Source of the DNA: a virus
Virus genome (UHGV): UHGV-1351982
Reading direction: 5' to 3' (one strand)
DNA length: 64,000 nt
Shown here: one piece after another, positions 6,219-63,562 of the stretch
How the letters are laid out: every line of letters starts with the position of its first letter
How positions within the stretch are numbered: position 1 is the first letter of the stretch
Made by a program: the position numbers and the translations under genes
The notes under the pieces: model-generated
The model's database searches: none
What the model was told of the DNA's origin: nothing
The model's input: the letters and a program-made list of their open reading frames with translations, nothing else

Positions 6219-7431
6219 ACTTATCAAGTAATTGTTTTACCAATTTCTTAAGTTCATCAATTTCTTGCTGTTGCTTTTCAACAACTTCATTAAGTTCATT
6301 AAAAGCATTAACTAGGAGAGCGGTAACACCGCTATAACTTACACCTAAATACTCGCTGTTAGAGATTTTATAAACAGCCTCCGGCAAAACTGCCTGTACA
6401 TCCTGAGCTATTACACTTGCTTCCTCAGAATAAATAGAGTGTTCATCTTCATCAAGATTATTACGTTTAAAATAAGTATAACCCTTAATAGATTTAACTT
6501 TCTCTCTTGCTGTTTTAATCTCTTTTAAATTGGCTTTTAATCTAATATCAGAAGTGCTAACCCATTGAACGCAAGACGCATATCCAGCATCATTAAATGT
6601 GTAGATTGCACCTTTTATGTTAAAATGAGCCTCACAACCCCCGGCACTATATCTAACAACATCAAGGCCAGCAGCCCAGTCACCACCCCATCTAACTACT
6701 TTAAACACGTTTGAGGCAGCATCATCACCTGGTAATTCAACAAGAAGGCCACAAGCGCGATCGGCTTCAGCCTTAGCACGATTTGCCTCAGTAGTAGCAT
6801 CTACAGCCTTATCTCCTGCTTCTACAGCAGAACCAGCCGCATTAGTTTCTGATTCTTTAGCATTTAATTCTGATTGTTTAGCGGAAGCAGCATGTTCTCC
6901 AGCAGTTGTAGCAGCAGCTTCTGCACCTGCTTTTGCTGTTTCAGCACCAGTCTTAGCAGTTTCTGCAGCTGTCTGAGCTTGTTGAGCCGCAGTTTTAGCT
7001 TGTTCGGCAAGTCTACGACTGGTCTCCGCATTTTGAGCAGCTAATTCAGCAGAATTCCTGAATCCTTTAGATTCTTCCGCCGATGTAGCGGATGCTTCAG
7101 CACTCTTTTGTGACAGACCAGCTTGTCTCTCAGCTTCCGCGGCAGATGCCGCAGATTGAGTTGCAGATGTTTCAGAAGAAGTAGCATAAATTGCAGCTAG
7201 GTTCTCCGAGTCCTTAGCATTTGTTTCAGATTCTTTTGCTGCAATCTCAGAATCTTTTGCTGCCGCAGCAGAAGAAGCAGAGGCTTCTACAGCAGCAGTT
7301 AATTCACCAGCAGTAATAGAACTAATAGAATTACCTAAAACTACTGTATATTTAGGATACTTACTAGCAGTAGTTGTAGTGTCATCTATATTCAGAATCT
7401 GCTGTACAATAATTTTAGTTTTAAGTGCCAT
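6217..7431 (-). CDS. ltf: short lateral (L-shaped-type) tail fiber with C-terminal intramolecular chaperone domain
   Basis: Ala-rich repetitive N-terminal part; C-terminal about 130 aa with SDIRLK and EAVY.. motifs resembling self-cleaving intramolecular chaperone (S74-like) domains; position before collar/pb4 as in T5. Confidence 0.55.
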   Translation of the reverse strand: MALKTKIIVQQILNIDDTTTTASKYPKYTVVLGNSISSITAGELTAAVEASASSAAAAKDSEIAAKESETNAKDSENLAAIYATSSETSATQSAASAAEAERQAGLSQKSAEASATSAEESKGFRNSAELAAQNAETSRRLAEQAKTAAQQAQTAAETAKTGAETAKAGAEAAATTAGEHAASAKQSELNAKESETNAAGSAVEAGDKAVDATTEANRAKAEADRACGLLVELPGDDAASNVFKVVRWGGDWAAGLDVVRYSAGGCEAHFNIKGAIYTFNDAGYASCVQWVSTSDIRLKANLKEIKTAREKVKSIKGYTYFKRNNLDEDEHSIYSEEASVIAQDVQAVLPEAVYKISNSEYLGVSYSGVTALLVNAFNELNEVVEKQQQEIDELKKLVKQLLDK

Positions 7432-20417: not shown

Positions 20418-20903
20418 TTATCTGCGTAATGCACGCTTAGGTGGCATATAACGCACTGTTACATTTATTTCCGCTAAACCATATGGGGCCAGTAGACCTT
20501 CATCTGTAGCTACTGAGGTGATGTTCATATCAGTTGCCTCACATGGGAAGGTCGATCCATTAGGTTTACTAACAGTATATTCTAAATTTCCACCTGTGTC
20601 AATGACGGTTTTTATGTCAGCTACGAGTTTTTCAAGTTGCTCTTGAATATCTGTTTTCTCTTTGTCATACACGAGGATTGGAAGTTCTAAAAACATCCAC
20701 TGTTGGCCTGAAGGAAGATACTGCCCAGTTTCAGTTCCGATATGGACTGCCACATAAGGAAATTCTCGGATTTCCTCAAATTTATAAGTTTGACGAGAAA
20801 CGTTTCCATAAAGGTTATTGAAATACTCGTCAGGTTGTGAACCATCCATTTGTGTGGCGATTCGGTCAACCACTGCTTGTGCAATACTTGTTCTGTGATC
20901 CAT
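20418..20903 (-). CDS. putative tail terminator/completion protein
   Basis: 161 aa directly upstream of major tail tube gene. Confidence 0.4.
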   Translation of the reverse strand: MDHRTSIAQAVVDRIATQMDGSQPDEYFNNLYGNVSRQTYKFEEIREFPYVAVHIGTETGQYLPSGQQWMFLELPILVYDKEKTDIQEQLEKLVADIKTVIDTGGNLEYTVSKPNGSTFPCEATDMNITSVATDEGLLAPYGLAEINVTVRYMPPKRALRR

Positions 20904-20906
20904 TTA

Positions 20907-21674
20907 TTAGGTTCCTTGATTAACCTTGATTTTATATCTAGAATGAATCAGGTCTCTTGCAGCTTTTGCGATTGCTTCCCCAATAAGTTTTTGAGGGTTT
21001 CGAGCGCCAGGGTAAGGTCGTAGAGAAAGTCTTCGATATGTAGAAACTGCGGGGTTGAACACAGAATAAGGACGAACCATATAATTATACGTCACATTCA
21101 GCTCTGGAGCACCTTTACTAGTTTCTGCATCACGTAGCATAACGTCTTTAATCTTTAAGGAGTTAGCAAAGCGACCAGTTCTGAACTTCAATGGTGCTCC
21201 TGCTTTTTTCATATCCTTGATTAAGTATTCCTTAGCTACTATCTCAAGAATAGCACGCATGTTACTATTCGATACGAAACGACCGGAAGCACCTGTTACT
21301 GCACCAGAATAGCCATCTTCAGTATCTCTAGGATCTCCAAAGTTTACCTGAACTCTACCGGTAGAACGTTTTTTACCAACAGCAGAACGTTTACCTGCGG
21401 TTGCTTGAATTAGATTCTCTAGAGCACCTAAATCACCAGAAAGATCTAAGTTAGAAGAGACGGCCTTCAATATAGATGCTGTCCTAACATTTAATAAGTC
21501 TTGAGATACTGGTTTTGAGAATTTGAAAGATACCTGTGCAACTGTACCATCTCTTGTAGGATCTTTCAAACCTGTCTCAACTGTATACACAACAGTATTC
21601 TTATTATTCTCAGATCGTCCTGCAGTATCTAGCTGCTCTTTAATAATTTGTCTAGCTAGATCAGAAAGAGCCAT
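20907..21674 (-). CDS. putative neck/tail completion protein
   Basis: 255 aa in head-tail joining region. Confidence 0.4.
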   Translation of the reverse strand: MALSDLARQIIKEQLDTAGRSENNKNTVVYTVETGLKDPTRDGTVAQVSFKFSKPVSQDLLNVRTASILKAVSSNLDLSGDLGALENLIQATAGKRSAVGKKRSTGRVQVNFGDPRDTEDGYSGAVTGASGRFVSNSNMRAILEIVAKEYLIKDMKKAGAPLKFRTGRFANSLKIKDVMLRDAETSKGAPELNVTYNYMVRPYSVFNPAVSTYRRLSLRPYPGARNPQKLIGEAIAKAARDLIHSRYKIKVNQGT

Positions 21675-22186
21675 TACACTCTCCTATAGACTTCGATGAT
21701 TGTACGAATATGCTCTGGAATACCAGACTTAGTATTGTTAAACGTAACTGTCTCACCACCAATAGTCTTGGCTTGACGATAATCTTGCTTATGCCAGTGA
21801 TCTACTAACAGACATGCTGCCAGTTTAAGATCTTCAGGCATTGGATTGAAACCACCTTGAGTATACTCTACATCCATGTATCCTTCAGGAGGATTAAACT
21901 TAAGGAGAATAACACCATCAGGATACAGTTTAAACTGTTCCGGGTCTATTTCATTCTCGTTAATAGTCATCTTTGTAATAGATGTGGCTGAGGGAGAACT
22001 CAGAAAATATTTTCTGCGAGTAGGTTTTGTGTTGATTAGCTGATCTATCGCATCCGCATCATCCATACCTAAAAGGCTAGTAATCAGCGTATTGGCAGCC
22101 TTAATCATCATGTCTACTCCAGATTCGATTTCAGGTCGTTTTAGGCTACCGTATAGTCTATAATCTTCAGCTGTGATGATTTGCAT
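21674..22186 (-). CDS. putative head completion/connector protein
   Basis: 170 aa directly downstream of major capsid gene. Confidence 0.4.
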   Translation of the reverse strand: MQIITAEDYRLYGSLKRPEIESGVDMMIKAANTLITSLLGMDDADAIDQLINTKPTRRKYFLSSPSATSITKMTINENEIDPEQFKLYPDGVILLKFNPPEGYMDVEYTQGGFNPMPEDLKLAACLLVDHWHKQDYRQAKTIGGETVTFNNTKSGIPEHIRTIIEVYRRV

Positions 22187-22206
22187 TTATTTTTCCCAAT
22201 AAAAAA

Positions 22207-22224
22207 GGAGAGCCGAAGCTCTCC
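22207..22224 (-). terminator. rho-independent terminator after major capsid gene (GGAGAGC-CGAA-GCTCTCC plus U-run)
   Basis: 7-bp GC stem followed by TTTTTTATTGGG on minus-strand RNA; plausible attenuation after a highly expressed gene. Confidence 0.6.
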
Positions 22225-22245
22225 TTATCGGCTGAAAAGCCTGTA

Positions 22246-23619
22246 TTAAGCAGCGTAAGCACCAGATACAACGCCGTTTTCGAAGTAACGTTGCAGGTTA
22301 ACACGCTGAGTAACGTAGTATGCGTCACGCTGTTTTCCAGCTTGGCGCTCACGTTCAACAGTAACAGCACGCTGACGCGGCATTACGAAGTTATCTTTGT
22401 AAACAATAACTGCGAATTCAGCGGAAGCAGCTTTAGCTGGGAAGTACTCAGAAACTACAACCGGTAGACCGTAAATACGACCAACCTGACCCTGCAGTTT
22501 AACAGCATCATTACCAACCTGGGCAACATCCTGCCATTCTTCATCTTCCAGCAGATCGTAGTAAGCATCCATAGATACGATCAGTACCAGTTTACTCAGT
22601 TTCAAACCATGACGGCCCAGTTTACGACGCAGCTTGGAGATAGTCTTAGCAGTTACCAGAACAGAACCGTCAGCTTTAGCTTCGGTAACAACCTTAGCAC
22701 CATCATCAGCAGCCAGTTTCAGCAGACCCTTAGGCTGACCAGTACCATTACCAGACATGAAAGCTTCTTCGATAGAAACAGCGTGTGCTTCGATCAGACG
22801 CTTACGCAGCAGAGGCAGCAGGGAGAAGATTGCATCTTCTTCAGTTTCATCAGTGATGAAGGATTTAGCAGCCAGCTTGTAAGTTTTGAAGCTGATTTCA
22901 GTCAGTTGACCTTTAACTTCGTCACCAACAGTTTCGTCAGTACCGAATTTGGAAGCGTCTACCCAAGTAGCACGACCAGCTTCTGGTTCAACGAGCATAG
23001 TAAGAATTTTGCTGGACATTGGCAGTTCATCGAACAGTGCACCAACTACCAGTTCCTTCTGCAGGTCACGGATAATACGGGTAGAGAAGATAGTTTCGTA
23101 TGCTTCGCTAGACATGGAAACGGAAGAAGAACCGTTAACAGCTTTAACGTGAGCCTTACCATGTTCAGTTTCGAATACGTCCTTCTCCATCATATAAGAC
23201 AGAAGAACCAGTTTCTCAACTTCATCCTCGAAAGCATCCTGAGTGCCATAAAGAGCTTTAGCTACGCTATCACCAACGAAGGAACGACCTTCACGAGCTG
23301 CCAACAGAGACTTGATTTCGTCCTGAAGACCAACGATGGTTTCCTGTTGCTTTTCTACAGTCTGTGCAAACAATTCTGCGCTCTTCTTAGACTTCTCGTC
23401 CAGGTTCTTAACCAGATCCAGAGCTTCTTCCAGACGCTTACGGTCTTCACCAACAGCTTTAGATACTAGGTCGTTCATACGAGCCAGTTCTTTTTCTTCC
23501 TGCTCTTCACGCAGACGCTTAGCTTCCGCAGCTTTCTGAGCAGCAGTCAGACCTTCCAGAGATTTAGCCAGATCACCCAGACCAAGTTCTTCCTTCAGCT
23601 TATTAATATCAATAGTCAT
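22246..23619 (-). CDS. pb8: major capsid protein precursor (T5 pb8-like)
   Basis: 457 aa; N-terminal coiled-coil delta domain (KLKEELGLGDLAKSLEGL..) followed by capsid body; downstream of protease. Confidence 0.85.
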   Translation of the reverse strand: MTIDINKLKEELGLGDLAKSLEGLTAAQKAAEAKRLREEQEEKELARMNDLVSKAVGEDRKRLEEALDLVKNLDEKSKKSAELFAQTVEKQQETIVGLQDEIKSLLAAREGRSFVGDSVAKALYGTQDAFEDEVEKLVLLSYMMEKDVFETEHGKAHVKAVNGSSSVSMSSEAYETIFSTRIIRDLQKELVVGALFDELPMSSKILTMLVEPEAGRATWVDASKFGTDETVGDEVKGQLTEISFKTYKLAAKSFITDETEEDAIFSLLPLLRKRLIEAHAVSIEEAFMSGNGTGQPKGLLKLAADDGAKVVTEAKADGSVLVTAKTISKLRRKLGRHGLKLSKLVLIVSMDAYYDLLEDEEWQDVAQVGNDAVKLQGQVGRIYGLPVVVSEYFPAKAASAEFAVIVYKDNFVMPRQRAVTVERERQAGKQRDAYYVTQRVNLQRYFENGVVSGAYAA

Positions 23620-58885: not shown

Positions 58886-59185
58886 TTAGATAATTTCGAC
58901 AATATCCTGGGTTACAAACCCGTCGAATTCATCAGAGATACCACCTGTAAAGGTGATGCCCATAATCATTGCATCCATTTTTCTTATCTCCGATATTTTC
59001 ATGCCTGCTTTACTATTTTTATAGTATTTGCGAGGATTTCCACACATCCAACAAGAACAGATGCAAGGAGTGGTAGTGATAATGCCCAAACGTTTAGGAC
59101 TTTCCTCGTGTGGGAAGACTGTCCAATACTTTTTGCGATTGTTTTTCACACGTTGACGGTGATGACGCCTTAATGCTCTGTCCAC
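58886..59185 (-). CDS. Cys-cluster protein (99 aa)
   Basis: TPCICSCWMCGNPRK metal-binding-like cluster; directly downstream of the GrcA-like gene. Confidence 0.4.
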   Translation of the reverse strand: MDRALRRHHRQRVKNNRKKYWTVFPHEESPKRLGIITTTPCICSCWMCGNPRKYYKNSKAGMKISEIRKMDAMIMGITFTGGISDEFDGFVTQDIVEII

Positions 59186-59266: not shown

Positions 59267-59635
59267 TTATATCGCCTGAGTAAATGTACGACTAATAACG
59301 TCGTTCTGTTGTTCACGCGTCAGTGCATTAAATCGAACAGCATAGCCAGAGACACGAATGGTCAACTGAGGGTATTTTTCAGGATGTTTCTGTGCATCCA
59401 AAAGCTGATCACGACTTAACACATTGACATTTAGGTGCTGACCGCCCTCGACCTGAGGAACTACTTCAACATCTACGATGCGAAAGGCTTCAGGATCAAA
59501 GTGAGGTGTGATACCTTCTAGATCTTCAACTAGAACTTTTTGTTTAAGTTCACCATCTTTAGAGTATAATTGAATGATCTGATTGTCATGAACAAGGTTA
59601 ATTACGCCGGATTTAAGGTTTTGGTATGCTTTCAT
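59267..59635 (-). CDS. grcA: autonomous glycyl radical cofactor (GrcA/YfiD-like)
   Basis: 122 aa; C-terminal [12 protein letters not shown]...[33 protein letters not shown] matches my recollection of E. coli GrcA including glycyl-radical signature RVSGYAV. Confidence 0.75.
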
Positions 59636-59818
59636 TAGATCTCCCTGATGTTAGAATTTGGCTCAGCTTTTTGTTAACCCAGAAGCAAGATAAAAACTGG
59701 GAGGCAGGCTGTTTATTAAGTGAATACCCGATAATCGCTCGTAGTCCGGCTTGTGGATTGATAGTCCCATTCAGTTTAATAAACACAGAGATCTGGCACA
59801 AAGGCCTGATCTTATCTT

Positions 59819-59894
59819 TGGTAGTTAGTAGTGGATTTGAACCACTGTAGTCGCTCCGTATGAAGGAGGTGCATAACCTCTCTGCCAACTAACT
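59819..59894 (-). tRNA. tRNA, anticodon CAU (Met or Ile2), encoded CCA
   Basis: Manual fold: acceptor AGTTAGT/ACTAACT, T-arm AGTGG-TTCAAAT-CCACT, anticodon loop TTCATAC. Confidence 0.5.
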
Positions 59895-59990
59895 ATTATG
59901 TTTTACTAGACTAAGTAAGTATTCTTTATACTCTTTAGACCAATTAGCTTTTTTAAACTTTCCTGGACGCATAGTCTTACTTCCTAAATT

Positions 59991-60067
59991 TGGTACTCCG
60001 GGAGGGATTTAAACCCCCGATCTCTCGGTTATCAGCCGAGTGCTTTAGATCGCTAAGCTACCGAAGC
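59991..60067 (-). tRNA. tRNA-Ile (GAU), encoded CCA
   Basis: Manual fold: anticodon arm CTCGG-CTGATAA-CCGAG, T-loop TTTAAAT, acceptor GCTTCGG/CCGGAGT. Confidence 0.55.
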
Positions 60068-60068
60068 A

Positions 60069-60275
60069 TTAACATTTAATTGCAGAACGTTTACCATTTC
60101 TAGGCGCACCTGGAAGTCGTGCACGTTCTGCCATTCTTCGCTTAATCTTTGAGATATTTTCTAGTGTTTGTTCTTCAGGCTTAATACCTGAAACACTACA
60201 CCACTGATTACCATCCCATGCGGTAATGATCATAACACCATTGCCCATAATCTTTTCTGTGAAAGTAATTCTCAT
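60069..60275 (-). CDS. hypothetical small protein (68 aa)
   Basis: ORF between tRNAs. Confidence 0.35.
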   Translation of the reverse strand: MRITFTEKIMGNGVMIITAWDGNQWCSVSGIKPEEQTLENISKIKRRMAERARLPGAPRNGKRSAIKC

Positions 60276-60568
60276 TATAACAACTCGTCTAAGTAAGAGG
60301 TATACTGGTATTTAGCTTCACCAGTTTTATCTACTTCGACTTCTGTTCTAGGTACTTTTCGTACCAGACCGTGAATCATCTTATATTGAATAGATTTAGA
60401 TGGTTCGTGATCTTTAGGAAAGACCTGCTTAACTGTAACTACTTTAAATCCCTCACGTGGTGTTAGTACAACAACTTGATCACCTTCTTTGATTTTCCAA
60501 GACTCAGGAAATTCATAAGTGTAGCGTTGACCACCGGTAAGGAATATAACAGAAAGATAACGTTTCAT
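60275..60568 (-). CDS. hypothetical protein (97 aa)
   Basis: ORF after promoter and leader. Confidence 0.4.
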   Translation of the reverse strand: MKRYLSVIFLTGGQRYTYEFPESWKIKEGDQVVVLTPREGFKVVTVKQVFPKDHEPSKSIQYKMIHGLVRKVPRTEVEVDKTGEAKYQYTSYLDELL

Positions 60569-60598
60569 TTGGTTTTCCTCTCATTAATTTATATAAAC

Positions 60599-60627
60599 AT
60601 TATATCAAGAAATAAGAGGAAAGGCAA
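60599..60627 (-). promoter_or_regulatory. early promoter (TTGCCT-N17-TGATATAAT)
   Basis: Minus strand; conserved leader before ATG at 60568. Confidence 0.5.
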
Positions 60628-60642
60628 ATGAATTTTTAAATT

Positions 60643-60717
60643 TGGTGCTCCCACCAGGAATCGAACCCGGTTCAGATGCTTACAAGGCAACTGCATCGCC
60701 AGCAATGCTTTAGGAGC
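60643..60717 (-). tRNA. tRNA-Thr (UGU), encoded CCA
   Basis: Manual fold: D-stem GCAT/ATGC, anticodon loop CTTGTAA, T-arm CCGGG-TTCGATT-CCTGG. Confidence 0.55.
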
Positions 60718-60884
60718 AATAAACCCGTTATTTCAACGGGATTTCTTTTTCAAATACAGGAGACTTATCAGACATTACTGTCATAGCCAACTGCTGTAGA
60801 AATTCGAATGAGAGTTTTAAACGTTCTTCGCCCAACTCAACCTCAACGCGCTTCATTCGTTTATCTACCTTTATCTTTAGATTA

Positions 60885-61106
60885 TCAGCCATCTTCGGGT
60901 TCTCTTTGCTCAGCTATTGCTAGCCAGTCTGGTAAAAGAAACTTAGTACGAAATTCTTCATATGTTTCTTCCGGATGAAAGCTATAGCCTTGCTTTTCAT
61001 CATTTAATAAAACCGAACCGTCTTCCTGCTCATAAGCTCGGTATGTTTCACCAATAATTAAAACTCGCCTATTAGGATTTTTATTACGAAACTCAAAAAC
61101 GTCCAT
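60885..61106 (-). CDS. hypothetical small protein (73 aa)
   Basis: ORF between tRNAs. Confidence 0.35.
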   Translation of the reverse strand: MDVFEFRNKNPNRRVLIIGETYRAYEQEDGSVLLNDEKQGYSFHPEETYEEFRTKFLLPDWLAIAEQREPEDG

Positions 61107-61121
61107 AACGTTTCCTTAAAT

Positions 61122-61196
61122 TGGTGCGGGATACGAGAGTCGAACTCGTGTCTACTGGTTGGAAGCCAGTTATTCTAGCCACTGAACTAATCACGC
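61122..61196 (-). tRNA. tRNA-Gly (UCC), encoded CCA
   Basis: Manual fold: anticodon arm ACTGG-CTTCCAA-CCAGT, T-arm ACGAG-TTCGACT-CTCGT. Confidence 0.6.
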
Positions 61197-61203
61197 ATTC
61201 GTT

Positions 61204-61279
61204 TGGCTGGAGAAGGAGGAATCGAACCTACCATTAACGGAGTCAAAGGCCGTTGTGCTAACCATTACACTACTCTCCA
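61204..61279 (-). tRNA. tRNA-Gln (UUG), encoded CCA
   Basis: U1-A72 pair and G73 as in E. coli tRNA-Gln; anticodon loop CTTTGAC. Confidence 0.5.
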
Positions 61280-61285
61280 AGTATT

Positions 61286-61361
61286 TGGCTGGGATGCCAC
61301 GGATCGAACGTGGAACCTTCGGAGTCAGAGGCCGACGATCTGCCAATTGATCTACATCCCA
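61286..61361 (-). tRNA. tRNA-Gln (CUG), encoded CCA
   Basis: U1-A72, G73; anticodon loop CTCTGAC; T-arm CCACG-TTCGATC-CGTGG. Confidence 0.5.
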
Positions 61362-61369
61362 ATAATTTT

Positions 61370-61570
61370 TTATTCTTCAGGAACCGTGGCTATTGGATCT
61401 GGTTCTTCTAGACGTTTACCATTATGATCGACACGAATAATGCCACAACCTTCACAGATTACAACAGCACCATAGCCTTCTTTAACTTCGGCTTCTGTAA
61501 TCAGACCAGATAAATCACCAGTATCTTTGCCCCACATATCAATAGAGCATTCTTTGCAGAAATCAGCCAT
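61370..61570 (-). CDS. small zinc-ribbon-like protein (66 aa)
   Basis: CKEC ... CEGC paired Cys motifs. Confidence 0.4.
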   Translation of the reverse strand: MADFCKECSIDMWGKDTGDLSGLITEAEVKEGYGAVVICEGCGIIRVDHNGKRLEEPDPIATVPEE

Positions 61571-61594
61571 ATTTTAGTTCCTGTATAAGTTAAT

Positions 61595-61669
61595 TGGTGC
61601 ATCCTCAGGGAATCGAACCCCGATCGTAAAGTTCGTAGCTTTACATTCTTTCCGTTGAAATAAGGACGC
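61595..61669 (-). tRNA. tRNA-Arg (ACG), encoded CCA
   Basis: Manual fold: anticodon arm TAAAG-CTACGAA-CTTTA, acceptor GCGTCCT/AGGATGC. Confidence 0.5.
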
Positions 61670-61675
61670 AATATT

Positions 61676-61752
61676 TGGGGTGGCTAGTGGAATTCGAATC
61701 CACATAGGCCTGATTCACAATCAGGATCATTAACCAATTATGATATAGCCAC
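61676..61752 (-). tRNA. tRNA-His (GUG), encoded CCA
   Basis: Manual fold: D-stem TCAT/ATGA, anticodon arm CCTGA-TTGTGAA-TCAGG, T-arm GTGGA-TTCGAAT-TCCAC, C73. Confidence 0.6.
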
Positions 61753-62116
61753 AATTGAAAACCATTGAGGAGTAGCGAACTCTCTACACTAGAAGCTTGC
61801 ATGCTCATACCTAGTGATTAGACCTAGCAAATAGGCGCTACAAGTAACGACCCTAAGTGGTAGACTCAAACAGACAATGATTTTCAATTGTGGCGGCTCT
61901 CCGAAACTCATCACACTAACAACTAGTTGATTACTTCTGGATTCTCGCCCAGAAAATTCTCTAGAAAGGTGCACCGTTACTCTTTGAGCCATTGATGATG
62001 GGATGGTCTCTCATCCCCACTAACTACTTAATCCTTACGATTCGTCGGTTAGCACGAGCAGCAACCCTTCATATATAATTTATAGTGCCCAGAAGGTCAT
62101 TAGAAGCACTTTATCA

Positions 62117-62246
62117 AGAAGTAGAAGGACTCGAACCTTCAAGAGATAGACCATTTATCTCAGCCTCGTTTTCGGGTATCTTATGAGGAGTGGATGTTCC
62201 CCTTACGCCCTTTAGGAAGCCCCGTCTACCGATTCCGGCATACTTC
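62117..62246 (-). ncRNA. tRNA-like structured RNA (about 130 nt; T-arm and acceptor pairing but no canonical cloverleaf)
   Basis: GAAGG-TTCGAGT-CCTTC T-arm, acceptor-like pairing GAAGTAT/CTACTTC about 115 nt apart, internal 6-bp hairpin GAGATA-AATGGTC-TATCTC; no long ORF. Confidence 0.3.
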
Positions 62247-62255
62247 AAGAATTAT

Positions 62256-62459
62256 TTAAAACTTGTAACCTTTGGGAACCTTATCTTTAACACCGATATA
62301 CTCAGCTTGGATGTAGTATGTTGGCACATGATCTTTAGGTAGATCTTTATTTACATCATTAACTTCCATCAAGGCTTCGGCCTCGGTGTCAAATGGGCGA
62401 TACCAGATTTCACCACCCCAGCCACGTTCACTTTCAGTATACTTAACAATGTGTTTCAT
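62256..62459 (-). CDS. hypothetical small protein (start trimmed to MKHIVKY)
   Basis: ORF-track start at 62510 would overlap tRNA-Ser; internal Met at 62459 has upstream AGGAAAAC. Confidence 0.35.
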   Translation of the reverse strand: MKHIVKYTESERGWGGEIWYRPFDTEAEALMEVNDVNKDLPKDHVPTYYIQAEYIGVKDKVPKGYKF

Positions 62460-62477
62460 AAGGTTTTCCTTATTAGT

Positions 62478-62567
62478 TGGAGGAAGGTAATGGAGTCGAA
62501 CCATCACCATATCGCTACAGCGGGCAGGTTTTCAAGACCTGTTACATACCACTATGTCCTACCTTCC
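62478..62567 (-). tRNA. tRNA-Ser (UGA), type II with long variable arm, encoded CCA
   Basis: Perfect acceptor GGAAGGT/ACCTTCC, anticodon arm CAGGT-CTTGAAA-ACCTG, variable hairpin CGCT-GT-AGCG. Confidence 0.6.
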
Positions 62568-62794
62568 AGTATTTGTTCTACTTCTTTGCGTAGATCTTCT
62601 GGATTATCATGATAGGTTGTTTGCCATACATAAATAACCCCGGCATCACATGCTTTATCAAAGATTTCTCGCTCAGGAAGTTTCATCCCCATTGCATACT
62701 TGATATGTAACTCTAGAGCTTGCTTACTAGGGAATGTATGACGCAAGAAAAACTTATCATTAGCTAAATCCAACATCATAATTTTGACTTTCAT
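62552..62794 (-). CDS. hypothetical small protein (80 aa)
   Basis: ORF; 3' end overlaps tRNA-Ser 5' end by about 16 nt. Confidence 0.35.
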   Translation of the reverse strand: MKVKIMMLDLANDKFFLRHTFPSKQALELHIKYAMGMKLPEREIFDKACDAGVIYVWQTTYHDNPEDLRKEVEQILEGRT

Positions 62795-62815
62795 TTATAT
62801 CCCCTATTAGTTGTT

Positions 62816-62907
62816 TGGCGGAAGAAGAGAGATTCGAACTCTCAAGCCTGCTTTCACAAGTCAGCCACTTTCCAAGCGGTTTTCGTCACCTATCGATTTG
62901 CTCTTCC
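62816..62907 (-). tRNA. type II tRNA, probably tRNA-Ser (GGA), encoded CCA
   Basis: Acceptor GGAAGAG/TTCTTCC, T-arm GAGAG-TTCGAAT-CTCTC, candidate anticodon loop TTGGAAA; D-arm atypical. Confidence 0.4.
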
Positions 62908-63081
62908 GTAGATCTCAGGATTAAATCATAAACTTCATTAGCGGATACTGGAAGTATGAGATTATACATCTTTTGGTCATACCTCTGACCATACTCTATA
63001 AACACATACTCTTTAGTTAATGTATTAACAGCTAACCAGATATCAGTTATAGGAGTTTTCATCATGAGTTAATCTAATGTT

Positions 63082-63162
63082 TGGTAGGGATGGAGGGACT
63101 CGAACCCACACCCGAAGACTAGAACCTAAATCTAGCGCGTCTGCCAATTTCGCCACATCCCC
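63082..63162 (-). tRNA. tRNA-Leu (UAG), encoded CCA
   Basis: Anticodon arm CTAGA-TTTAGGT-TCTAG, extended variable arm, acceptor GGGGATG/CATCCCT. Confidence 0.5.
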
Positions 63163-63169
63163 ATTTTAT

Positions 63170-63388
63170 TTAGTTAGAAATAAATAATAATCCCGCAACA
63201 ATGGAACCTACGCCACTGAATACCATTATCAGCATAGCTTCTAAGCTGATAAAGCGGACAGTATATGGAGCGCCCCAAGAATAATCAGTAAAGAAAGTTT
63301 TCTTTTCTTTAGCTAAATCTTTAACAGTTCTAAAATAGATAGCTAGTGCTAAAGCTGCAAGAACTACAGAGGCTGCTAAGAATACCAT
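63170..63388 (-). CDS. small membrane protein (72 aa)
   Basis: Two hydrophobic helices. Confidence 0.35.
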   Translation of the reverse strand: MVFLAASVVLAALALAIYFRTVKDLAKEKKTFFTDYSWGAPYTVRFISLEAMLIMVFSGVGSIVAGLLFISN

Positions 63389-63407
63389 ATTATTTCCTTA
63401 ATTTGTT

Positions 63408-63483
63408 TGGTGGAGTCACTCAGAATTGAACTGAGTTCCACTGCTTGCAAGGCAGTAAGTTTAACCAAATAACCTATGACCCC
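63408..63483 (-). tRNA. tRNA-Cys (GCA), encoded CCA
   Basis: Anticodon arm ACTGC-CTTGCAA-GCAGT, T-arm CTCAG-TTCAATT-CTGAG. Confidence 0.6.
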
Positions 63484-63488
63484 GAATT

Positions 63489-63562
63489 TGGTGGAGAAAG
63501 AGGGAGTTGAACCCTCGTCTTCTGCGTGCAAAGCAGATGTTCTACCATTAAACTATATCCCC
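63489..63562 (-). tRNA. tRNA-Ala (UGC), encoded CCA
   Basis: Anticodon arm TCTGC-TTTGCAC-GCAGA, T-arm GAGGG-TTCAACT-CCCTC. Confidence 0.55.

What the first reader, a model, noticed from the sequence alone, without database searches (positions are those of the whole stretch)
59267..59635. Phage-encoded GrcA/YfiD-like glycyl-radical protein
The 122-aa ORF ends with a sequence matching my recollection of E. coli GrcA, including the glycyl radical signature RVSGYAV and the flanking [12 protein letters not shown] and [12 protein letters not shown] blocks. In E. coli GrcA acts as a spare part that repairs oxygen-damaged pyruvate formate-lyase. A phage copy would be an auxiliary metabolic gene supporting fermentative energy metabolism during infection in low-oxygen gut conditions. 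It lies at the head of the tRNA cluster, a typical accessory hotspot.
Basis: partly seen in the sequence, partly recalled or inferred. Interest (0 to 1): 0.6.

Follow-up and report, generated by a model that had tools for sequence, protein, structure and literature searches.

The report
T5-like phage GrcA spare-part protein
This is the T5-like phage copy of GrcA/YfiD, a small protein that carries a replacement radical site for the host's oxygen-damaged pyruvate formate-lyase; it is real and conserved, but it is already annotated and a phage example (T4 Y06I) was characterised in 2001.

Summary
A 122-aa ORF lies at 59267-59635 on the minus strand. Its C-terminal half is a glycyl-radical domain (Pfam E=4.7e-18) with the exact PFL loop RVSGYAV (Gly97). 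That half is 78-85% identical to the C-termini of E. coli GrcA, PflB and TdcE.

The ORF is the orthologue of T5 gene T5.056 and sits in the same place next to tRNA-Met. It occurs in essentially every E. coli/Salmonella T5-like phage record (439, against 441 carrying a core marker gene). It is under strong purifying selection (dN/dS 0.06).

The spare-part reading is well supported by homology. Phage T4 Y06I and E. coli YfiD are the two biochemically validated members of this kind. No activase was found in the phage DNA examined, so activation by host PflA is inferred.

Three refinements apply:
- The gene lies at the transcriptional downstream end of the tRNA cluster, not its head.
- It is an old phage-resident gene, not a recent capture (about 72% nucleotide identity to E. 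coli paralogues, phage-like GC).
- Its first ~44 residues are barely similar to other GrcA N-termini.

Verdict: already known, low novelty. The T5-type protein itself appears untested.

The parts
59267..59635 (-). CDS of 122 aa (stop codon included): T5.056 orthologue, a GrcA/YfiD-type autonomous glycyl-radical protein
   Evidence: ORF. It shares 114/122 aa with T5.056. Full-length match to phrog_1209, E=5.9e-47. dN/dS against T5.056 is 0.06 at dS 0.64.
59270..59452 (-). C-terminal glycyl-radical domain (residues 62-122), equivalent to PflB 698-759
   Evidence: Pfam PF01228 matches residues 62-103. phmmer alignments to 6owr and 1h16. The AF2 model has helix 75-83, hairpin 92-95/98-101 and helix 107-117. 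Top Foldseek hit is YfiD 6owr, E=3e-6. 32 invariant columns across 71 homologues.
59336..59356 (-). Glycyl-radical loop RVSGYAV (residues 94-100); Gly97 codon GGC at 59345-59347
   Evidence: Position; codon read. The heptamer RVSGYAV is the peptide that E. coli PFL-AE activates, whereas RVCGYLG (class III RNR) is not activated (review PMC13450708).
59453..59635 (-). N-terminal half (residues 1-61): T5-type-specific, conserved, predicted beta-rich region
   Evidence: AF2 predicts strands 2-6, 12-16, 19-26 and 29-37 at pLDDT ~84-91. dN/dS is 0.09. Residues 1-44 are not similar to E. coli GrcA (784/1000 shuffles score as well) and only marginally similar to other phage members.
59641..59646 (-). 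Shine-Dalgarno AGGGAG, 5 nt upstream of the ATG
   Evidence: Read directly from the sequence.
59819..59894 (-). tRNA-Met(CAU), the last tRNA of the cluster, immediately upstream of the gene in the direction of transcription; same neighbour as in T5
   Evidence: ARAGORN, Rfam, T5 annotation.
60599..60627 (-). Best sigma-70-like promoter upstream (TTGCCT-17-TATAAT with TG), at the position of T5 early promoter P11; inferred source of the transcript that runs through tRNA-Ile and tRNA-Met into the gene
   Evidence: Consensus scan, 10/12 matches. The number of promoter-like sites in the region is not above the shuffle expectation. Placement is by analogy with T5 P11. This is an inference.

Best explanation
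[quoted passage not shown] The gene is probably expressed early, on the same leftward transcript as the phage tRNAs. The proposed mechanism has three steps. When oxygen destroys the Gly734 radical of the host's pyruvate formate-lyase and cleaves the chain there, the phage protein docks onto the cleaved enzyme. The host activase PflA (PFL-AE, radical SAM) then abstracts a hydrogen from Gly97 in the RVSGYAV loop. The C-terminal ~60 residues take the place of the lost PflB C-terminus and restore conversion of pyruvate to acetyl-CoA and formate (the same could apply to the paralogue TdcE). This would matter to the phage because T5-like phages destroy host DNA and shut off host synthesis (my own knowledge of T5 biology). 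An infected cell then cannot remake the 170-kDa PFL dimer or induce its own grcA, so a 14-kDa phage-made spare part keeps fermentative ATP and acetyl-CoA supply going during micro-oxic episodes. Shown here: the domain, the loop, conservation, selection and synteny. Taken from the literature: the mechanism for YfiD and Y06I. Inferred: that the T5-type protein does the same, and its timing and benefit.
For: Glycyl-radical domain with E=4.7e-18. GrcA models are the top NCBIfam hits. YfiD and PflB are the top PDB hits, with 78-85% identity over the last 60-62 residues and an identical RVSGYAV loop. The loop is the exact heptamer activated by PFL-AE, and TdcE, which has the same loop, is also activated by PFL-AE (PMC13450708). 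T4 Y06I and E. coli YfiD are validated spare parts (PMC8683613). T4-like homologues align to the whole query at ~52% identity. The predicted fold of the C-terminal half matches the YfiD NMR structure. No PflA-like gene was found in the window or in the parts of the closest relative PSa2 that were examined, so a host activase is needed. dN/dS is 0.06 overall and 0.024 in the radical domain. The gene is present in 439 records, against 441 carrying the dNMP-kinase marker of E. coli/Salmonella T5-like phages. GC of 0.40 equals the window's, and there is no host-like nucleotide patch. The close relative PSa2 also encodes anaerobic NrdD, which fits a phage adapted to low oxygen.
Against: No experiment on the T5-type protein was found. 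It scores below the curated GrcA equivalog cut-off (118 against 170 bits), although validated T4 Y06I does too (151). In YfiD the N-terminal half is needed for binding cleaved PFL and for efficient radical installation (PMC8683613). In the T5 type, residues 1-44 show no significant similarity to YfiD and only marginal similarity to other phage members, so docking and regulation may differ. In-vivo benefit to any phage is undocumented in the papers read.
Confidence: 0.8

Rival explanations
1. Same protein family, different target or regulation. The T5-type protein mainly serves TdcE or intact-but-inactive PflB. Alternatively, its distinct N-terminal beta module lets it be activated and loaded without the 'only on cleaved PFL' safety mechanism described for YfiD.
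For: Among the E. coli paralogues the C-terminal 62 residues are closest to TdcE (52/62 against 47-49), and tdcE is the best E. coli blastn hit. The N-terminal 44 residues are unlike YfiD's yet strongly constrained and confidently predicted as four strands. In YfiD the N-terminal half governs binding and activation.
Against: The TdcE advantage is 3-5 residues out of 62, and other phage proteins are equally close (52/60), so it is within noise. TdcE and PflB share the loop and the activase. The AF2 alignment included bacterial GrcAs, and a predicted ordered N-terminus does not prove order in solution.
Confidence: 0.12
2. Decoy or inhibitor. The protein soaks up host PflA or occupies PFL to redirect or dampen host fermentation rather than repair it.
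For: It carries a perfect PFL-AE substrate loop. No experiment shows rescue by the T5 type.
Against: The whole radical domain, not only the loop, is near-invariant: 32 invariant columns and dN/dS 0.024. That includes the parts that pack into the PFL barrel, as expected for a working replacement. The homologous T4 protein restores activity.
Confidence: 0.05
3. Inert relic: a fragment of a host pflB, tdcE or grcA 3' end picked up by the phage and not functional.
For: Many records annotate it as 'pyruvate formate-lyase' although it covers only the last ~8% of that enzyme.
Against: Intact ORF with an SD sequence. dN/dS is 0.06 at dS 0.64. It is present in practically all E. coli/Salmonella T5-like records at the same locus. 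Composition is fully phage-like.
Confidence: 0.01
4. Spare part for the phage's own anaerobic ribonucleotide reductase NrdD.
For: The closest relative, PSa2, encodes NrdD, another oxygen-sensitive glycyl-radical enzyme.
Against: No similarity to the phage NrdD (BLASTP E=16). NrdD's loop is RVCGYLG, the heptamer that PFL-AE does not accept, whereas this protein has the PFL loop.
Confidence: 0.01

Closest known systems
Bacteriophage T4 Y06I (gene vs.6), 120 aa
   Same: Phage-encoded small glycyl-radical protein of the same length class. It shares the MKAYQ start and an identical RVSGYAV loop, with 47/62 identity in the C-terminal half. T4-like homologues align to the whole query at ~52% identity. 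It is validated as activated by PFL-AE and as rescuing oxygen-cleaved PFL.
   Different: The last 60 codons of T4 are 98% nucleotide-identical to E. coli grcA, a recent host-derived patch with sharp borders; the T5 type has no such patch. The N-terminal halves share only 17/51 identities. The genomic contexts differ (vs cluster against tRNA cluster).
E. coli GrcA/YfiD (127 aa; PDB 6owr; TIGR04365)
   Same: Same architecture: a standalone ~14-kDa protein with a C-terminal PFL-type radical domain. Identity is 49/62 over that domain, phmmer E=2.4e-29, and the fold matches.
   Different: The score is below the equivalog cut-off (118 against 170). Residues 1-44 are not detectably similar. The YfiD N-terminus is reported disordered, whereas here four strands are predicted. 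The gene is phage-encoded and AT-rich.
C-terminal glycyl-radical domain of PflB / TdcE (formate C-acetyltransferases)
   Same: Residues 61-121 align to PflB 698-758 without gaps. TdcE is the closest E. coli paralogue (52/62).
   Different: It lacks the ~700-residue barrel and the catalytic Cys418/Cys419. It cannot be a formate-lyase on its own, so the common record name 'pyruvate formate-lyase' is a misnomer.
GrcA-like proteins of jumbo and Vibrio phages (e.g. Klebsiella phage K64-1, Salmonella phage SE_PL, Vibrio phage D479)
   Same: Closest non-T5 relatives of the radical domain (52/60), sharing the 'DAQ' signature that is absent from the four E. coli sequences compared.
   Different: Their N-terminal halves are clearly homologous to bacterial GrcA N-termini (hhalign probability 99%, E=4e-19). 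The T5-type N-terminus is not (probability 0.35% against bacterial; 78% over 14 columns against other phages).

Membership tests
[quoted passage not shown] | Small standalone protein (~120-130 aa) whose C-terminal half is a PFL-type glycyl-radical domain | tested here: met
   122 aa; PF01228 at residues 62-103; aligned to YfiD 53-126 and PflB 698-758.
[quoted passage not shown] | Radical loop RVSGYAV with the conserved Gly, the PFL-AE recognition sequence | tested here: met
   RVSGYAV at 94-100, Gly97; invariant in 71 homologues; heptamer specificity from PMC13450708.
[quoted passage not shown] | Score at or above the curated NCBIfam equivalog cut-off (170 bits) | tested here: not met
   118.3 bits, matching only residues 54-121. 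The validated T4 Y06I also fails (151.1) while E. coli GrcA scores 234. The cut-off therefore defines bacterial equivalogs rather than function.
[quoted passage not shown] | N-terminal half homologous to that of YfiD (needed there for cPFL binding and activation) | tested here: inconclusive
   hhalign of T5-type against bacterial N-termini gives probability 0.35%. An HMM built from non-T5 N-termini scores the T5-type N-terminus second among 5001 sequences, driven by residues 45-58. For residues 1-44, Smith-Waterman p is ~0.002-0.1 against most of the phage members tested (one showed no similarity) and 0.78 against E. coli GrcA. The shared MKAYQ start and the full-length phrog_1209 match argue for distant homology.
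[quoted passage not shown] | Activated by PFL-AE and restores activity to oxygen-cleaved PFL | not testable with these tools
   Biochemical property; shown for YfiD and T4 Y06I only.
Phage GrcA-like family phrog_1209 | Full-length match to the family profile | tested here: met
   E=5.9e-47, residues 1-122 against profile positions 1-121 of 121.
Pyruvate / 2-ketobutyrate formate-lyase (TIGR01255; PflB, TdcE), the name used in many phage records | ~760-aa ten-stranded barrel with the catalytic Cys-Cys pair; score at or above 994 bits | tested here: not met
   Only profile positions 683-743 of 744 are matched, at 84 bits against a cut-off of 994; the protein is 122 aa.
Class III ribonucleotide reductase glycyl-radical domain | Loop RVCGYLG and similarity to the NrdD C-terminus | tested here: not met
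   BLASTP against the PSa2 NrdD gives E=16; the NrdD loop is RVCGYLG whereas this protein has RVSGYAV.

The most novel reading that the evidence does not exclude
The T5-type protein may be a distinct sub-class of spare part. Its first ~44 residues form a conserved, folded beta module unrelated in sequence to the disordered YfiD N-terminus that gates binding and activation. The phage version might therefore be loaded or activated under different rules, for example without needing cleaved PFL, on TdcE, or faster than host GrcA. It may also have a second partner.
Probability: 0.15. Interest if true: 0.45.

Novelty: already known. Interest (0 to 1): 0.2.

Why it matters
It shows that a lytic gut phage keeps a host fermentation enzyme working through oxygen exposure, which is a clear example of an auxiliary metabolic gene. 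That principle has been established since T4 Y06I (2001), and the T5 gene has long been annotated. What remains open is modest. Nobody appears to have tested the T5-type protein, whose N-terminal half differs from the two characterised members. Its near-universal retention in E. coli/Salmonella T5-like phages suggests a real fitness effect, and anaerobic or micro-oxic infection assays could measure it.

Tried and rejected
1. A structured RNA or degenerate tRNA in the 183-nt spacer (59636-59818) that T5 lacks. There was no Rfam match at E<=0.1, the fold z-score was +0.5, and the only promoter-like site was weak, 9/12.
2. A phage-encoded activase. tblastn with E. coli PflA against the window and PSa2 21.9-80 kb gave nothing below E=3.
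3. A radical-SAM reading of the neighbouring ORF. A CxxxCxxC scan flagged ORF 58886-59185. It is a 99-aa protein of the T5.055 family, found only in T5-like phages, with no Pfam or PDB match and a conserved TPCxCSCxMCGNPRK Cys4 motif. It is too small to be an activase, and nothing links it to one.
4. A spare part for phage NrdD: rejected.
5. Recent capture from an E. coli host: rejected for this gene, although it holds for part of T4 vs.6.
6. A TdcE-derived origin. The TdcE advantage is matched by other phage proteins, so it is not supported.
7. A PflB-derived N-terminal half. The family profile aligns to PflB only from residue 694.
8. Literature on the T5-type protein: searches returned nothing relevant.
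9. PMC6754787 (the YfiD NMR paper) is not held in the library.

Full report
**Observation.** The window has an ATG-initiated ORF at 59267..59635 on the minus strand, encoding 122 aa. An AGGGAG Shine-Dalgarno sequence lies 5 nt upstream (sequence). The radical glycine is Gly97, within RVSGYAV at residues 94-100.

The similarity is far beyond chance:
- Pfam Gly_radical: E=4.7e-18, 66 bits against a gathering score of 22.
- NCBIfam: the GrcA models (TIGR04365, GrcA3, GrcA2) are the best hits, followed by formate C-acetyltransferase.
- PDB: best chains are YfiD 6owr (E=2.4e-29) and PflB 1h16 (E=1.7e-26), aligned without gaps over residues 61-121.

**Where it sits.** All 13 tRNA genes in the window (59819-63562) are on the same minus strand. 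The ORF therefore lies at the downstream end of the tRNA cluster in the direction of transcription, directly after tRNA-Met.

The window is a T5-like phage of the Epseptimavirus type. The 2-kb region is 97% identical to Escherichia phage PSa2, 96% to Salmonella phage bastian and 95.5% to EPS7. T5 itself has the same gene in the same place. That gene is T5.056, 369 bp, next to tRNA-Met and annotated 'putative acetyltransferase-related protein' by its match to InterPro IPR001150. It shares 114/122 residues with the window protein.

By analogy with the T5 annotation, the gene lies in a leftward unit. This unit starts at a P11-like promoter, whose best local sigma-70 match is at 60627-60599. It then runs through two small ORFs, tRNA-Ile and tRNA-Met. 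This is an inference, because promoter-like sites in the region are not more numerous than in shuffled sequence.

**Distribution and selection.** tblastn finds the protein in 1,584 phage records. Of these, 439 are at >=80% identity (T5-like phages of Escherichia and Salmonella). About a thousand are at ~52% identity over the full length (T4-like phages), and there are also jumbo, Vibrio and Aeromonas phages. A core marker from the same window, dNMP kinase, is found at >=60% identity in 441 records. The gene is therefore essentially universal in this phage group.

It is absent from the syntenic tRNA-to-dnk interval of a Klebsiella Sugarlandvirus. Only 32 kb of that genome was examined.

Against T5.056, dS is 0.64 and dN/dS is 0.06 (0.09 for codons 1-60 and 0.024 for codons 61-122). 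Both halves are under strong constraint, so this is not a relic.

**Origin.** The radical-domain codons are 70-74% identical at the nucleotide level to E. coli grcA, pflB and tdcE, with 42-47% identity at third positions. The gene's GC (0.40) equals the window's. This is an old, phage-resident gene with no detectable recent host donor.

The closest radical domains outside the T5 group belong to other phages (52/60). E. coli TdcE is equally close (51/60), so the apparent TdcE affinity (52/62; tdcE is the best blastn hit) is within noise.

T4 vs.6 is different. Its codons 61-120 are 98% nucleotide-identical to E. coli K-12 grcA (97% at third positions). The borders are sharp, at the EGGQ codons and at the stop codon. 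That indicates recent exchange with the host gene.

**What is known about the kind.** The literature states that YfiD of E. coli and Y06I of phage T4 are the only validated spare-part proteins. PFL-AE installs the glycyl radical on them, and the activated protein complexes with oxygen-cleaved PFL to restore activity (Wagner et al. 2001, as summarised in PMC8683613).

The YfiD C-terminus duplicates the PFL radical domain. [quoted passage not shown]

PFL-AE activates the heptamer RVSGYAV but not the class III RNR loop RVCGYLG. It also activates TdcE, which has the same loop (PMC13450708). The window protein has exactly RVSGYAV.

**Structure.** AlphaFold2 was run with a 71-sequence alignment and gave mean pLDDT 78.
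- The C-terminal half has helix 75-83, a hairpin at 92-95/98-101 with Gly97 at its tip, and helix 107-117.
- Foldseek's only hit at E<=0.001 is the YfiD NMR structure (E=3e-6, TM 0.75 on the target). Radical domains of other glycyl-radical enzymes follow.
- Residues 62-72, the strand that packs into the PFL barrel, have low confidence, as expected for a part without its partner.
- Residues 1-37 are predicted as four strands at pLDDT ~84-91.

The alignment included bacterial GrcAs, so this prediction does not prove order in solution.

**The N-terminal half is the unusual part.** N-termini of other phage members are clearly homologous to bacterial GrcA N-termini (hhalign probability 99%, E=4e-19). 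The T5-type N-terminus is not: probability 0.35% against bacterial sequences and 78% over 14 columns against other phages.

A profile built from all non-T5 N-termini ranks the T5-type N-terminus second among 5001 sequences (itself plus 5000 shuffles). That score is driven by residues 45-58. Residues 1-44 give Smith-Waterman scores with p~0.002-0.1 against most of the phage members tested, largely from the shared MKAYQ start; one phage member and E. coli GrcA (p=0.78) show no similarity.

The full-length phrog_1209 match and the full-length tblastn alignments to T4-likes still favour distant homology. The family profile aligns to PflB only from residue 694, so the N-terminal half is not detectably PflB-derived.

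**Partners.** No PflA-like gene was found in the window or in PSa2 21.9-80 kb, so a host activase is required.

PSa2 also encodes the anaerobic ribonucleotide reductase NrdD. Its loop is RVCGYLG and it has no similarity to this protein (E=16). That rules out a role as an NrdD spare part.

The ORF immediately downstream (58886-59185, T5.055 family) carries a conserved Cys4 motif that superficially fits CxxxCxxC. However, it is a 99-aa protein restricted to T5-like phages, with no family or structure match. It is not an activase.

**Membership.** The protein meets the architectural and loop criteria of the GrcA kind and belongs to the phage family phrog_1209. It falls below NCBI's GrcA equivalog cut-off (118 against 170 bits). 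So does the biochemically validated T4 Y06I (151 bits), whereas E. coli GrcA scores 234.

It is not a pyruvate or 2-ketobutyrate formate-lyase, although many records use those names. Only the last ~60 of 744 profile positions are present.

**Verdict.** The gene kind has been known since 2001. The gene was annotated in T5 through its glycyl-radical domain and is named 'autonomous glycyl radical cofactor' in many relatives. An identical protein sequence is encoded in Salmonella phage vB_SalS_SA001 (100% identity).

I found no experimental work on the T5-type protein in the held library. The residual interest lies in its divergent but constrained N-terminal half and its near-universal retention.

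Noticed in passing
L005 (phage T4, NC_000866.4) 6561-6740, minus strand = vs.6 codons 61-120: The C-terminal 180 nt of T4 vs.6 (Y06I) are 98% identical to E. coli K-12 grcA (97% at third codon positions). The similarity begins exactly at the EGGQ codons and ends at the stop codon, and the flanks are unrelated. This looks like a recent gene-conversion or recombination patch from the host, unlike the T5-type gene.
   Followed up: partly
window 59636-59818: A 183-nt AT-rich spacer separates tRNA-Met from the ORF start; in T5 the same gap is only 13 nt. There is no Rfam match and no unusual folding (z=+0.5), and the only promoter-like site is weak (59677-59648, minus strand, 9/12).
   Followed up: yes
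window 58886-59185 (minus strand): The ORF just downstream (T5.055 family, phrog_4499, 99 aa) has a very basic N-terminus (RALRRHHRQRVKNNRKK) and an invariant Cys4 motif TPCxCSCxMC(G/M)(N/S)PRK. It is found only in T5-like phages and has no Pfam or PDB match. It is possibly a small metal-binding nucleic-acid-binding protein; its function is unknown.
   Followed up: partly
L007 (Escherichia phage PSa2, OL770310.1) 20448-22322: The closest relative encodes anaerobic class III ribonucleotide reductase NrdD (loop RVCGYLG). No NrdG-type or PflA-type activase is annotated nearby or detected with a PflA query. These phages would thus carry two glycyl-radical proteins that both appear to depend on host activases. 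NrdG itself was not used as a query.
   Followed up: partly
public records listed: Annotation of this gene is inconsistent and often wrong. Names include 'pyruvate formate lyase', '2-ketobutyrate formate-lyase', 'putative formate acetyltransferase', 'putative acetyltransferase-related protein' and 'hypothetical protein'. A 67-aa truncated call (P0033) in Citrobacter phage YZU-L1 is named 'ribonucleotide reductase subunit'.
   Followed up: no
L008 (Klebsiella phage pKMKP103, Sugarlandvirus) 1-31983: This more distant member of Demerecviridae has no GrcA-like gene between its tRNA cluster and dNMP kinase (tblastn E>3, no R[VI][SAC]GY motif). The gene may be specific to the E. coli/Salmonella branch. 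The rest of that genome was not examined.
   Followed up: partly
window 63350-63562 (minus strand): Two tandem tRNA-Ala(UGC) genes lie at 63408-63483 and 63489-63562. A sub-threshold Rfam 'tmRNA_permuted' hit spans them (26.8 bits against a gathering score of 47, E=0.012). It is most likely a chance consequence of the tRNA-Ala-like sequence.
   Followed up: no
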